Sequence record: MH791411.1
Origin: Escherichia phage Ecwhy_1
Length of the DNA: 64,000 nucleotides
Strand: one strand, 5' to 3'
Every line of letters starts with the position of its first letter. Position 1 is the stretch's first letter. This document shows, in pieces, positions 60,286 to 61,543 of this stretch. Made by a program: the position numbers and the translations under genes. The notes under the pieces are model-generated. The model made no database searches and was not told where the DNA came from. It saw nothing but the letters and a program-made list of their open reading frames with translations.

Positions 60286-60408
60286 TCATTCCCCCATCAA
60301 CCAATCACGTAGACGTTCCCAGAAGCCTTTTGGCTGATATTCTGGATATTCATATTCATCTGTTCCTTGCTCGGAAACACCCCAATCTTCTTCTAATACT
60401 GTAATCAC
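60286..60408 (-). CDS. Small ORF (~40 aa), paralog of 61418-61543
   Basis: Not in the ORF track. Encodes (V)ITVLEEDWGVSEQGTDEYEYPEYQPKGFWERLRDWLMGE, with a GTG start after GGAGG; its stop is 1 nt from the cca start. Confidence 0.35.
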   Translation of the reverse strand: MITVLEEDWGVSEQGTDEYEYPEYQPKGFWERLRDWLMGE

Positions 60409-60419
60409 AATGCCTCCAA

Positions 60420-60863
60420 TTAAATTAATCTATCACGTAGACGGTCGTAATATTTTGCATGTATATCTAGTATACACTGAAATGATGGATAGTCAATACT
60501 AAATGTATCATCAATGAACATGTACTGAAGAAGTGTTTCTGGTCCATTATCAACAACTGGTAATGTCCCTTCTTTTTTTGATAGGGTGTGCCACATCAAC
60601 TCACTTTCAATATGGTGAGTTGCGTATGTCAATTCAATCTTACTTTTTCGTAGTAAAATTAACAATTCATCATTGTCATCGAGTGCATTACGAAATTTAA
60701 TACGAACTGTACCCTGGAAATTATTAGTGTACATAACACGATGATGATTGTATGAAATTAAACCACGTCTTTCAGTACTGATTTCATGTTCAGCAAAGTA
60801 CTTTAACGTTTCATTAAATTTTGGAATTTTACTTGCGTCCACCAATGTAATCCTCATATACAT
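60420..60863 (-). CDS. Hypothetical protein, paralog A
   Basis: C-terminal LLQYMFIDDTFSIDY matches paralog B's YLQYQFIDDTFGFDF. Confidence 0.5.
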   Translation of the reverse strand: MYMRITLVDASKIPKFNETLKYFAEHEISTERRGLISYNHHRVMYTNNFQGTVRIKFRNALDDNDELLILLRKSKIELTYATHHIESELMWHTLSKKEGTLPVVDNGPETLLQYMFIDDTFSIDYPSFQCILDIHAKYYDRLRDRLI

Positions 60864-61242
60864 GATATACGTTCATTATACTATTATATAGTTCAAAGTC
60901 AAATCCAAATGTGTCATCAATGAACTGGTATTGCAGATATTCTTCATATGAAGCATCAATTGGTAATGATCCAGCACGAATATCATCTGATTTAAAATCG
61001 TCAATGTATCTTAATGTTATGTCTTCATCAACAGTAATATCTATCATCAACGTATCGTCACTGTACCAAAGGTTATGTATACGGATGTAAAGTTTCTTAG
61101 CACGATTAAAACTAGATACATTGGTATTGCGATGGAGTTTATCTAAGTTGAAGTAAAAACCAGGCTCGTTTTTACTTATGTTTTTCATATGTTCTGCAAT
61201 CGAATCAATTATATAATCAATGTTGAATGTTCTCATAAACAA
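60829..61242 (-). CDS. Hypothetical protein, paralog B
   Basis: 137-aa ORF sharing conserved segments with the adjacent 147-aa ORF. Confidence 0.5.
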   Translation of the reverse strand: MFMRTFNIDYIIDSIAEHMKNISKNEPGFYFNLDKLHRNTNVSSFNRAKKLYIRIHNLWYSDDTLMIDITVDEDITLRYIDDFKSDDIRAGSLPIDASYEEYLQYQFIDDTFGFDFELYNSIMNVYHVYEDYIGGRK

Positions 61243-61421
61243 ATCTCATAGCGGTTTGTGTTTGGATTGTAGCAATAGGTATCATTAATTTTAACACCAG
61301 GTTTAAGTGTTATTGTTGTTCCTACTTCAGTACTGGGTTCTGCATCACAATAAATCATCACACCAACGCCACAGATTAAAGCTAAGATACAAATAATAGC
61401 ACATATTGTATATTCCATCAC
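61233..61421 (-). CDS. Small Cys-rich membrane protein
   Basis: MEYTICAIICILALICGVGVMIYC forms one predicted TM helix; ATG at 61421 (the track's start at 61436 is TTG). Confidence 0.4.
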   Translation of the reverse strand: MMEYTICAIICILALICGVGVMIYCDAEPSTEVGTTITLKPGVKINDTYCYNPNTNRYEICL

Positions 61422-61543
61422 TCCCCCATCAGCCAATCAAAGAGACGTTCCAAGAAGCCATTAGGCTTGTATTCTGGTTCTTTGTTCACGTCGGTTTCTT
61501 GTTCATAAACACCCAAATCTTCTTCAAGTATAATTGTATTCAT
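61418..61543 (-). CDS. Small ORF (41 aa), paralog of 60286-60408
   Basis: Not in the ORF track. Encodes MNTIILEEDLGVYEQETDVNKEPEYKPNGFLERLFDWLMGE; its start overlaps the upstream stop (TAATG). Confidence 0.35.
   Translation of the reverse strand: MNTIILEEDLGVYEQETDVNKEPEYKPNGFLERLFDWLMGE

What the first reader, a model, noticed from the sequence alone, without database searches (positions are those of the whole stretch)
60286..61543. Cluster of dispersed paralogous small genes downstream of the CCA enzyme gene
Two unannotated ~40-aa ORFs (60286-60408 and 61418-61543) are clear paralogs (...EYQPKGFWERLRDWLMGE vs ...EYKPNGFLERLFDWLMGE), and two adjacent 137/147-aa ORFs are paralogs of each other. 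A Cys-rich single-TM mini-protein lies between them. Locally duplicated small genes are typical of accessory or anti-defence hot-spots.
Basis: seen in the sequence. Interest (0 to 1): 0.55.

Follow-up and report, generated by a model that had tools for sequence, protein, structure and literature searches.

The report
Small acidic phage genes beside CCA enzyme
The two tiny look-alike genes are real: one is a conserved, mostly disordered acidic mini-protein that sits just before the tRNA CCA-adding enzyme gene in several groups of giant phages, and the other is a decaying second copy brought in by recombination, but nothing yet shows what either does.

Summary
The window is an Asteriusvirus-type jumbo coliphage, 99.5% identical to phage Turkey3. 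All genes here read on the minus strand, so the cluster lies upstream of the CCA gene, not downstream.

- The 40- and 41-aa ORFs are paralogs (E=8e-17).
- The 137/147-aa ORFs are paralogs. The neighbouring 126- and 127-aa ORFs belong to the same family.

**miniA (60286-60408) is a real gene.**
- dN/dS is 0.02-0.22.
- It keeps its place next to the CCA enzyme gene in at least five phage lineages.
- It is acidic. Residues 1-26 are predicted disordered and carry a conserved LEEDWGVSEQG motif. The C-terminus is an amphipathic helix.

**miniB (61418-61543) did not arise by local duplication.**
- It arrived with the 127-aa gene as a cassette from a JNE01/Turkey5-type phage. The crossover is visible inside the Cys-rich membrane gene.
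- It has lost conserved tryptophans here, and it is a pseudogene in phage ph0011.

**The locus is variable.** It shows cassette presence/absence, inserted mobile genes and mosaic alleles. Nothing ties it to anti-defence.

Function remains unknown. My best inference is a two-anchor protein-binding peptide co-produced with the CCA enzyme. The finding is ordinary to modestly interesting.

The parts
59169..60284 (-). CCA-adding tRNA nucleotidyltransferase gene (371 aa), the conserved downstream neighbour of miniA
   Evidence: PolyA_pol head plus RNA-binding domains. phrog_2244, E=9e-117. Annotated as CCA tRNA nucleotidyltransferase in Turkey3 and 121Q.
60286..60408 (-). miniA: 40-aa acidic mini-protein (pI 4.1, net charge -8.5). 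GTG start preceded by GGAGG. Its stop TGA lies 1 nt before the CCA ATG, and its last codons (M-G-E) contain GGGGGA, which can serve as the CCA ribosome-binding site.
   Evidence: phrog_34272, E=3e-31. dN/dS 0.02-0.22 among orthologs. Serine codon switches between TCN and AGY, and synonymous Leu/Gly/Val changes occur across lineages. Same position in PHA46, XaC1 and metagenomic relatives. AF2: residues 1-26 disordered, helix at 27-38.
60420..60842 (-). 147-aa ORF (140 aa from the annotated ATG; the ORF extends to 60863). Member of the ~130-aa family with the C-terminal EE-F-F-Q...D...Y motif.
   Evidence: phrog_20693. Hit by the outgroup-only HMM, E=5e-5. dN/dS 0.24-0.44; its dS disagrees with that of the flanking genes.
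60829..61236 (-). 137-aa ORF (135 aa from the ATG). Same family. Its ATG overlaps the CysTM stop codon (ATGA).
   Evidence: phrog_20693. hhalign versus the 147-aa family: 97% probability. AF2 model: pLDDT 71, pTM 0.70, one helix, six strands, two helices. The independent BFVD model of the PBECO4 ortholog superposes with TM 0.87.
61233..61418 (-). CysTM: 61-aa protein with an N-terminal hydrophobic segment and 6 Cys. The gene is chimeric: the 5' 57 nt are JNE01/Turkey5-type and the 3' 90 nt are 121Q/BF17-type.
   Evidence: phrog_4189. Identities 52/57 versus 43/57 at the 5' end, and 87/90 versus 57/90 at the 3' end. Best breakpoint at nt 51, Fisher p=3e-6.
61323..61368 (-). Inferred recombination crossover zone inside CysTM (gene nt 51-96, a segment conserved in both parental types)
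   Evidence: Informative-site pattern: 11 J and 2 Q before nt 51; 4 J and 32 Q after it.
61418..61543 (-). miniB: 41-aa second copy. Its start overlaps the 127-aa gene's stop (TAATG) and its stop overlaps the CysTM start (TGATG), again with GGGGGA in its last codons. Conserved residues are replaced: W9L, S12Y, G15E, E18V, Y19N, K27N, W30L.
   Evidence: phrog_34272, E=3.5e-16. Closest to the single mini of JNE01/Turkey5 (dS 0.2) and far from miniA (dS 1.3). The ph0011 copy has two in-frame stops. Window versus ph0011: Sd=0, Nd=4.
61543..61914 (-). 127-aa ORF (123 aa from the annotated TTG, preceded by GAGGTG). Divergent member of the ~130-aa family. Travels with miniB as a cassette.
   Evidence: Outgroup-only HMM, E=1.5e-7. 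hhalign versus the 137-aa family, E=4e-4. Present in only 8 records. Absent from 121Q, BF17 and A4.
61927..62307 (-). 126-aa ORF, the most canonical member of the ~130-aa family; first gene of the tightly packed run
   Evidence: phrog_36582, E=8e-68. Outgroup-only HMM, E=4e-11.
62326..62353 (.). G+C-rich hairpin followed by a T run, between the HPF gene and the 126-aa gene. Terminator-like. It probably marks the start of the transcription unit that holds the cluster.
   Evidence: The only terminator-like site found in 58600-63900. This is a consensus match only.
62362..62694 (-). HPF/RaiA-type ribosome-associated protein gene, the upstream border of the conserved block
   Evidence: Ribosomal_S30AE, E=7e-11. 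In the same position in PHA46, XaC1, L017, L018 and CBB.

Best explanation
**What it is (shown).** The locus is a run of tightly packed, co-oriented, real protein-coding genes. It sits inside the RNA-repair/translation block of an Asteriusvirus jumbo phage: lysozyme, HPF, small genes, CCA enzyme, Nudix, glutaredoxin, macro domain.

**miniA (shown).**
- It is the resident copy of a narrow family, phrog_34272.
- Family members are 38-49 aa and strongly acidic.
- They share a conserved N-terminal motif, M-I-x-x-L-E-E-D-W-G-V-S-E-Q-G, in a region predicted to be disordered. A variable acidic linker follows, then a C-terminal amphipathic helix (G/S-F/W-W-E/D-R/K-L-x-D/E-W/L-L).
- It evolves under purifying selection.
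- It lies immediately, or one gene, 5' of the CCA-adding enzyme gene in several phage genera.

**miniB (shown).**
- It is the same gene from a different lineage. JNE01/Turkey5-type phages have the order 126-127-mini-CysTM-CCA. 121Q/BF17-type phages have 126-CysTM-137-147-mini-CCA.
- A crossover inside the shared CysTM gene, with a second inside the 3' end of the 126-aa gene, produced the composite order seen in this window. That order carries two minis.
- As the redundant copy, miniB has lost conserved residues here and is a pseudogene in ph0011. Its 3' end is kept because it carries the ribosome-binding site and start overlap of CysTM.

**The ~130-aa genes (shown).** The 126-, 127-, 137- and 147-aa genes are four members of one fast-diverging family specific to jumbo phages.

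**How it works (inferred, not shown).** miniA is made together with the CCA enzyme by translational coupling. It probably acts as a two-anchor peptide: the N-terminal motif and the C-terminal helix would clamp onto a protein partner. That partner could be the phage CCA enzyme, another protein of this block, or a host factor of tRNA/translation metabolism. The effect would be to tune or protect that step early in infection.
For: **Identity of the phage.** 99.5% identity to Turkey3 over 3.3 kb.

**miniA codes for a protein.**
- Pairwise dN/dS is 0.02-0.22. Examples: 121Q versus BF17, Sd=7 and Nd=1; window versus JNE01, Sd=14.8 and Nd=12.2, with 22 synonymous and 98 non-synonymous sites.
- Synonymous codon turnover, including TCN/AGY serine switches, occurs across distant lineages.
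- No RNA structure signal (z=-0.35 and -0.5) and no Rfam match.

**The family is narrow.** An exhaustive profile search of 1.84 billion proteins gave only 6 true small homologs.

**Synteny with the CCA gene.** Seen in PHA46, L006, L018 and L022 and XaC1.

**Structure.** AF2 gives pLDDT ~50 for residues 1-26 and a helix at 27-38 with pLDDT ~80. Net charge is -6.5 to -9.5, and the maximum hydrophobic moment falls on the C-terminal 11-mer.

**Translational coupling.** Stop/start overlaps and the GGGGGA inside the last codons are read directly from the sequence.

**Recombination origin of miniB.**
- Gene orders in JNE01 and Turkey5 versus 121Q and BF17.
- Chimeric CysTM.
- Cassette dS to JNE01 is ~0.2, against 1.6 for CCA and 0.7 for the 126-aa gene.

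**Decay of miniB.** Stops in ph0011. Intact consensus residues in the single-copy phages JNE01 and Turkey5.

**The four-member family.**
Against: - No experiment or structure shows that the mini-protein is made or that it binds anything.
- Adjacency to the CCA gene may simply reflect inherited gene order. RaK2 has the CCA gene without a mini. A4 and TH47 have a mobile gene between them. JNE01 has CysTM between them. T5-like phages carry a mini-like tail but have no neighbouring CCA gene.
- Coupling to CCA is not universal. PHA46, L018 and XaC1 have a 9-11-nt gap and a separate ribosome-binding site.
- The recombination model does not say whether the ancestor had one or two copies.
- miniB is intact in this window, so neofunctionalisation cannot be excluded.
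Confidence: 0.7

Rival explanations
1. The small genes were duplicated locally, and the locus is an accessory, anti-defence hot-spot. The mini-proteins and the ~130-aa proteins would be inhibitors of host defence systems, diversifying in an arms race.
For: - The locus is variable and mosaic.
- The ~130-aa family is multi-copy and diverges fast. The 137-aa orthologs are only 53% identical between this window and 121Q, while CCA is 87% identical.
- Its dN/dS of 0.2-0.55 is higher than that of CCA at 0.05-0.18.
- The proteins are small and acidic, as many known inhibitors are.
- tRNA-targeting defences and phage counter-measures are a documented theme (papers listed, e.g. PMC11555353).
Against: - miniA is conserved, not diversifying.
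- The second copy arose by recombination between lineages, not by local duplication.
- High dS in the divergent alleles points to allele exchange rather than positive selection. No pair has dN/dS above 0.55.
- No match to any known defence-related or anti-defence-like family in the libraries available.
Confidence: 0.2
2. The mini ORFs are not functional proteins. They would be translated or untranslated leader elements whose real role is to carry the ribosome-binding site and start overlap of the next gene. The similarity of the two copies would then be a DNA-level repeat.
For: - Both copies end in ...GATTGGYTGATGGGGGARTGAT. This places GGGGGA just before the start of the next gene.
- The ph0011 miniB pseudogene keeps this 3' end unchanged.
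- For miniB in this window the conserved tryptophans are lost.
Against: - For miniA, purifying selection acts on the amino-acid sequence, strongest at the N-terminus and far from the junction.
- The protein motif is conserved in lineages whose 3' ends and junctions differ completely.
- No RNA structure signal.
- This rival is plausible only for miniB. I put the chance that miniB is non-functional as a protein at about 0.4.
Confidence: 0.07
3. The mini-protein is a peripheral membrane peptide. Its C-terminal amphipathic helix (KGFWERLRDWL; in miniB, NGFLERLFDWL) would resemble the membrane-targeting helices of MinD (KGFLKRLFGG) and FtsA (GSWIKRLNSWLRKEF). It would anchor the acidic tail at the inner membrane or compete with those division proteins. 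The MinD and FtsA sequences are recalled from memory and were not checked here.
For: - The hydrophobic moment is 0.5-0.8 and peaks on the C-terminal 11 residues in all lineages.
- AF2 predicts a helix at 27-38.
- A membrane protein gene (CysTM) is coupled to miniB.
Against: - The helix has no net positive charge, and the whole peptide carries -6.5 to -9.5. That disfavours binding to anionic membranes.
- The resemblance is from memory and was not tested statistically.
- The best-conserved part is the N-terminal motif, not the helix.
Confidence: 0.05

Closest known systems
phrog_34272 / Escherichia phage 121Q gp538 (YP_009102125.1) and its orthologs in Asteriusvirus genomes
   Same: Both mini ORFs match the profile end to end: E=3e-31 for miniA and 3.5e-16 for miniB. 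Same length, and miniA has the same position next to the CCA gene.
   Different: No difference for miniA; it is simply an ortholog. miniB is a second, divergent copy that most members of the genus lack. The family has no known function.
phrog_20693 / phrog_36582: uncharacterised ~130-150-aa proteins of RaK2-like jumbo phages (e.g. PBECO4 L7TJV1)
   Same: - The 137/147-aa ORFs match phrog_20693 and the 126-aa ORF matches phrog_36582.
- They share the C-terminal motif with an invariant Gln.
- The BFVD model of the PBECO4 ortholog superposes on the AF2 model with TM 0.87. Several RaK2, CBB and Yersinia-phage proteins give weaker fold matches.
   Different: PHROGs splits them into separate families. 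Here an outgroup-only HMM joins all four window ORFs into one family. No function is known.
phrog_4586: 70-aa protein of T5-like phages (Epseptimavirus bas26_0069), made of DUF7230 plus an acidic tail
   Same: - Its C-terminal half (IMEENWDVSENGTD...KQWESIKE) aligns with the mini motif and helix.
- It scores 25 bits against the mini HMM (P=7e-10), while 5000 shuffles reach at most 13.4 bits.
- The weak hits are reciprocal: phrog_34272 at E=6e-4 and phrog_4586 at E=0.02. Two different mini queries both recover it by tblastn.
   Different: It carries an N-terminal basic DUF7230 module that the minis lack. It lies next to a metallopeptidase gene, not a CCA gene. The significance is marginal at database scale.
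Small phage host-takeover or inhibitor peptides (e.g. T4 Stp, T7 Gp0.4, lambda Kil). Named from general knowledge, as an analogy only.
   Same: Size of 26-51 aa, encoded among early or accessory genes, and acting by binding one host protein. The disordered-motif-plus-helix design of the mini fits that way of working.
   Different: No sequence similarity was found to any of them. No target is known. Unlike typical accessory inhibitors, miniA is conserved across genera.
p32/gC1qBP/MAM33 fold (acidic trimeric proteins: one N-terminal helix, an antiparallel beta-meander, two C-terminal helices)
   Same: - The AF2 model of the 137-aa protein has one helix, six strands and two helices.
- gC1qR/p32 tops the Foldseek list.
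- Three of the four window proteins are acidic, pI ~4.6.

Membership tests
phrog_34272 (mini-protein family) | Full-length match to the family profile | tested here: met
   miniA E=3.2e-31 over 1-40/40. miniB E=3.5e-16 over 4-40/40.
phrog_34272 (mini-protein family) | Conserved residues of the N-terminal motif and helix (W9, G10, V11, S12, W30 in miniA numbering) | tested here: met
   Met for miniA. Not met for miniB, which has W9L, S12Y and W30L.
~130-aa jumbo-phage family (phrog_20693/36582 and relatives) | Match to a profile built without any Asteriusvirus sequence; C-terminal EE-[FY]-[FL]-Q-x-S-[LF]-I-x-D...Y motif with an invariant Gln | tested here: met
   E-values: 126-aa 4e-11, 127-aa 1.5e-7, 137-aa 4e-5, 147-aa 5e-5. 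The next window ORF scores 0.1. Invariant Q in the alignment.
Known anti-phage defence families (PADLOC) | Significant match to a curated model | tested here: not met
   No match, apart from one chance-level Cas2b hit at E=0.005 for the 126-aa ORF. PADLOC holds defence proteins, not anti-defence proteins; no anti-defence library was available.
Known protein families (Pfam, NCBIfam, PDB sequences) | Significant match to a curated model | tested here: not met
   No Pfam or NCBIfam match above the cut-offs and no PDB sequence match.
Anti-defence proteins (functional class) | Inhibits a host defence system when expressed | not testable with these tools
   Needs plaque assays on strains that carry defence systems.
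Regulatory leader peptide / upstream ORF | Conservation concentrated at the 3' end or junction, or in RNA structure; amino-acid sequence otherwise free | tested here: not met
   For miniA the strongest conservation is N-terminal and acts at the protein level. RNA folding z-scores are -0.35 and -0.5.
Rfam RNA families / tRNA | Covariance-model match | tested here: not met
   No Rfam match at E<=1 in 58500-64000. No tRNA gene in the window.
DUF7230-containing T5-like proteins (phrog_4586) | N-terminal basic DUF7230 module | tested here: not met
   The minis start directly with the acidic motif. DUF7230 is found only in the T5-like protein. Only the tail is shared.
MinD/FtsA-type membrane-targeting helix | C-terminal amphipathic helix | tested here: met
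   AF2 helix at 27-38. Hydrophobic moment 0.5-0.8 on the C-terminal 11-mer.
MinD/FtsA-type membrane-targeting helix | Net positive charge of the helix, for binding anionic lipids | tested here: not met
   The helix KGFWERLRDWL is roughly neutral, and the peptide's net charge is -8.5.
p32/MAM33 fold | Significant structural superposition with one helix, seven strands and two helices | tested here: inconclusive

The most novel reading that the evidence does not exclude
The mini-protein would be a dedicated partner of the phage tRNA-repair module. It would be a disordered acidic peptide that either regulates the phage CCA-adding enzyme or acts as a decoy/inhibitor of a host nuclease or toxin that attacks tRNA 3' ends. 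The four ~130-aa acidic p32-like proteins would be a diversifying set of companion binders. That would define a new class of small phage counter-defence factor tied to tRNA repair.
Probability: 0.12. Interest if true: 0.6.

Novelty: new member of a known kind. Interest (0 to 1): 0.3.

Why it matters
Jumbo phages of the RaK2/121Q group carry hundreds of genes of unknown function. This analysis does four things:
- It picks out one 40-aa gene that behaves like a conserved core gene of the tRNA-repair/translation block. That makes it a specific, cheap target for pull-downs or deletion.
- It shows that four neighbouring genes form one family.
- It gives a worked example of how two "paralogs" can end up in one phage genome through recombination between lineages with different gene order, after which the redundant copy decays.
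- It does not reveal a new mechanism. The function remains open.

Tried and rejected
**Searches that found nothing**
- Pfam, NCBIfam, PADLOC and PDB-sequence searches of all seven small proteins gave nothing above threshold.
- RNA explanations fail: folding of both mini regions is no better than shuffles, there is no Rfam match and no tRNA gene.
- The sigma-70 promoter scan found 28 sites against 27 expected by chance. It is not informative, although two 11/12 matches exist.
- A literature search for the motif strings, for DUF7230 and for Asteriusvirus papers found nothing about these genes. The T5 anti-retron protein Rad is 189 aa and unrelated.

**Limits of the tools**
- The afdb50 fold library was unavailable.
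- Word-indexed homolog searches found only close relatives.

**Weak or negative tests**
- The fold search of the 137-aa model gave only generic beta-meander hits and a sub-threshold p32/MAM33 resemblance.
- The 55-58-aa proteins that precede the mini in XaC1, L018 and L020 scored 1-4 bits against the ~130-aa family HMM, so they are not family members.
- I tested whether the ORFs just upstream of CCA in CBB and in the Eneladusvirus phages are mini homologs. They share a C-terminal SFWxxL..D helix and an acidic aromatic-Gly motif. hhalign gives only P=0.03-0.07, so this stays a lead.
- A recombination between miniA and miniB as the origin of the JNE01 gene order is rejected, because JNE01 keeps CysTM between its mini and CCA.
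Full report
**Origin and layout.** The region 59100-62400 is 99.5% identical to Escherichia phage Turkey3. It is 84-97% identical to some 35 other Asteriusvirus-type jumbo phages, including 121Q and PBECO4. All genes here are on the minus strand. In the direction of transcription the order is:

| Gene | Coordinates |
|---|---|
| LysM-lysozyme | 62720-63673 |
| HPF/RaiA | 62362-62694 |
| terminator-like hairpin | 62326-62353 |
| 126-aa ORF | 61927-62307 |
| 127-aa ORF | 61543-61914 |
| miniB | 61418-61543 |
| Cys-rich membrane protein (CysTM) | 61233-61418 |
| 137-aa ORF | 60829-61236 |
| 147-aa ORF | 60420-60842 |
| miniA | 60286-60408 |
| CCA-adding enzyme | 59169-60284 |
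| Nudix, glutaredoxin, two small ORFs, macro domain | further 3' |

The genes are packed with overlapping stops and starts, read directly from the sequence:
- TAATG joins the 127-aa gene and miniB.
- TGATG joins miniB and CysTM.
- ATGA joins CysTM and the 137-aa gene.
- The 137- and 147-aa genes overlap by 14 nt.
- One nucleotide separates the miniA stop from the CCA ATG.

**Checking the observation.** The two mini ORFs are 68% identical over 37 residues (E=8e-17). They are the only such pair in the six-frame translation of the window. They form a 114-nt direct repeat of 77% identity, and the similarity is confined to the ORF. The 137/147-aa pair is related.
- The ORFs are annotated as hypothetical proteins in relatives.
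- They lie upstream, not downstream, of the CCA gene.
- The ~130-aa family has four members here.

**miniA is a real, conserved gene.**
- Among Asteriusvirus orthologs, synonymous changes outnumber non-synonymous ones although there are four times fewer synonymous sites. dN/dS is 0.02-0.22.
- A profile search of 1.84 billion representative proteins found only a handful of further members, and the word-indexed search found four clusters.
- Where context could be read, the gene always lies in the same block (lysozyme, HPF, small genes, mini, CCA, Nudix, glutaredoxin). It is immediately 5' of the CCA gene or one gene away. This holds for:
  - Salmonella phage PHA46;
  - Xanthomonas phage XaC1;
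  - metagenomic contigs L006, L018 and L022.
- In the short contigs L017 and L020 the gene after the mini is not CCA and the contig then ends, so the distance to CCA there is unknown.
- Across these lineages the N-terminal motif M-I-x-x-L-E-E-D/N-W-G-V-S/N-E/D-Q-G is kept while the codons change, including TCN/AGY serine switches. Selection therefore acts on the peptide.
- RNA folding is no better than for shuffled sequence, and Rfam finds nothing.
- RaK2 itself has the CCA gene without a mini.

**What the mini-protein looks like.**
- All members are acidic (pI 4.05-4.5, net charge -6.5 to -9.5) and rich in Trp.
- AlphaFold2 with the family alignment predicts no structure for residues 1-26 (pLDDT ~50). 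It predicts a helix at 27-38 (pLDDT ~80). The hydrophobic moment peaks on that helix in every lineage.
- The design is a conserved linear motif in a disordered acidic segment, a linker of variable length, and an amphipathic helix. This is the usual build of a peptide that folds on a partner. That reading is an inference; no partner is known.
- In Asteriusvirus the last codons (…D-W-L-M-G-E) contain GGGGGA directly before the next gene's start. Part of the C-terminal conservation therefore also serves translation of the downstream gene. Other lineages have different ends and separate ribosome-binding sites.

**A distant relative in T5-like phages.** A 70-aa protein (phrog_4586, bas26_0069) has an N-terminal DUF7230 module and a C-terminal half, IMEENWDVSENGTD…KQWESIKE, that aligns with the mini.
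- It scores 25 bits against a mini HMM, while 5000 shuffles reach at most 13.4 bits.
- The PHROG hits are reciprocal but weak, and two independent tblastn queries both recover it.
- It lies next to a metallopeptidase gene, not a CCA gene. I treat this as probable but marginal homology.

**Origin and fate of miniB.**
- The 127-aa+miniB cassette is present in only 8 records.
- 121Q, BF17 and A4 have the order 126-CysTM-137-147-miniA-CCA.
- JNE01 and Turkey5 have 126-127-mini-CysTM-CCA, with a single B-type mini that keeps all consensus residues.
- This window has both sets.
- Its CysTM gene is chimeric. The first 57 nt match JNE01/Turkey5 (52/57, against 43/57 for 121Q). The last 90 nt match BF17/121Q (87/90, against 57/90 for JNE01). 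The best breakpoint is at nt 51, with p=3e-6 before correction for ~166 tested positions.
- The cassette is close to JNE01 (dS ~0.2 for the 127-aa gene and miniB), while the flanking 126-aa and CCA genes are far (dS 0.7 and 1.6).
- The simplest account is a double crossover, in CysTM and in the 3' end of the 126-aa gene, that moved the cassette from a JNE01-type phage into a 121Q/BF17-type genome. The two minis are thus lineage variants of one gene brought together, not products of an in-place duplication. dS between miniA and the JNE01 mini (1.45-1.65) equals that of the CCA genes (1.6), as expected for orthologs.
- In the two-copy genomes miniB carries W9L, S12Y, G15E, E18V, Y19N, K27N and W30L. 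In ph0011 it has two in-frame stops. Window versus ph0011 shows 4 non-synonymous and 0 synonymous changes in miniB, and 6 versus 0 in the 127-aa gene.
- This is the pattern of a redundant copy under relaxed constraint. The 3' end, which serves CysTM translation, stays intact even in the pseudogene.

**The ~130-aa family.**
- An alignment of the four window ORFs with neighbours of the CCA gene from PHA46, RaK2, L017 and L022 shows a shared C-terminal motif, P-x4-E-E-[FY]-[FL]-Q-x-S-[LF]-I-x-D-x3-I-x-Y, with an invariant Gln.
- An HMM built only from the non-Asteriusvirus members picks out exactly the four window ORFs.
- The AF2 model of the 137-aa protein is of moderate quality: pLDDT 71, pTM 0.70, and only one of five models was good. 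It shows one helix, six strands and two helices.
- It superposes on the independent BFVD model of the PBECO4 ortholog (TM 0.87), and more weakly on many uncharacterised proteins of RaK2, CBB and Yersinia jumbo phages.
- Against solved structures, only generic beta-meanders and a sub-threshold p32/MAM33 resemblance appear.
- Orthologs have dN/dS of 0.2-0.55. Their dS values disagree strongly with those of neighbouring genes, which shows frequent gene-sized allele exchange among co-circulating phages.

**Function.** No library match gives a function for any of the seven small proteins.

I commit to this model: miniA is co-produced with the CCA enzyme and acts as a two-anchor binding peptide on a protein of the tRNA/translation block or on a host factor.

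The steps that are shown:
- miniA is a real coding gene.
- It is conserved.
- Its structural type is a disordered motif plus a helix.
- Its sequence is arranged for translational coupling.
- miniB arrived by recombination.

The steps that are inferred:
- miniA binds a partner.
- The identity of that partner.
- Any role in defence evasion.

The anti-defence reading is neither supported nor excluded.

**Verdict.** The genes belong to already catalogued families of unknown function. Interest is modest.

Noticed in passing
L015 2677-3744 (phage A4) and L014 1482-2549 (phage TH47): A 355-aa gene is inserted exactly between miniA and the CCA gene in two otherwise different phages. It has a DUF4379 treble-clef zinc finger and a C-terminal segment that looks like a PD-(D/E)xK nuclease. 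It looks like a homing-endonuclease-type mobile gene that targets this junction.
   Followed up: partly
L016 1690-2322 (phage JNE01): An extra 210-aa gene sits between the lysozyme and HPF genes. It has no Pfam match and is absent from this window. It may be another mobile insertion.
   Followed up: partly
L003 4836-4921 (phage BF17); also A4 and EC.P1: A perfect 43-bp tandem duplication at the 3' end of the 126-aa gene homolog extends the protein to 137-138 aa (…LRPFYIVQ). It lies right where the 127+miniB cassette is inserted in this window, so it may be a recombination footprint.
   Followed up: partly
L027 1771-2504 (Pectobacterium phage CBB); L028 2124-2504; L029 2115-2498: In CBB, three consecutive ORFs just upstream of the CCA gene (CBB_189-191) all end in an SFWxxL..D..I helix. 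CBB_191 also starts with an acidic FEYDFGIDYSD motif. The single ORF upstream of CCA in the Eneladusvirus phages ends the same way. These may be very distant mini relatives, but hhalign gives only P=0.03-0.07.
   Followed up: partly
L005 1902-2114 (T5-like phage GreteKellenberger, bas26_0069): A 70-aa protein combines an N-terminal DUF7230 module with a C-terminal half resembling the mini-protein. DUF7230 has no literature in the library searched.
   Followed up: partly
window 60424-60446 versus 60296-60318: The last codons of the 147-aa gene (…YYDRLRDRLI) resemble the miniA helix (…ERLRDWLMGE) at DNA level too: 19 of 23 nt. This could be chance or a small conversion tract.
   Followed up: no
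window 59169-62307 compared with L002, L003, L011-L016: Per-gene dS values are strongly discordant between neighbouring genes. Window versus fEgEco12: CCA 0.013, 147-aa 0.52, CysTM 0. Window versus 121Q: 147-aa 0.13, 137-aa 1.66, CCA 0.75. Recombination among these phages therefore operates at the scale of single genes.
   Followed up: yes
window 62382-62354 and 60902-60875 (minus strand): There are two 11-of-12 matches to the sigma-70 consensus (TTGACT, 16-17 nt spacer, TATAAT). One is at the end of the HPF gene, just before the hairpin. The other is inside the 137-aa gene, ahead of the 147-aa start. The total number of promoter-like sites is not above chance.
   Followed up: no
L013 (phage ph0011), 1486-1608 and 2433-2618: The deposited annotation of ph0011 omits the intact miniA and CysTM genes, which shows how easily these small genes are missed.
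   Followed up: no
L008 4028-4480 (Klebsiella phage RaK2): RaK2 has a single 150-aa member of the ~130-aa family directly upstream of its CCA gene and no mini gene. The CCA enzyme therefore does not strictly need the mini.
   Followed up: yes
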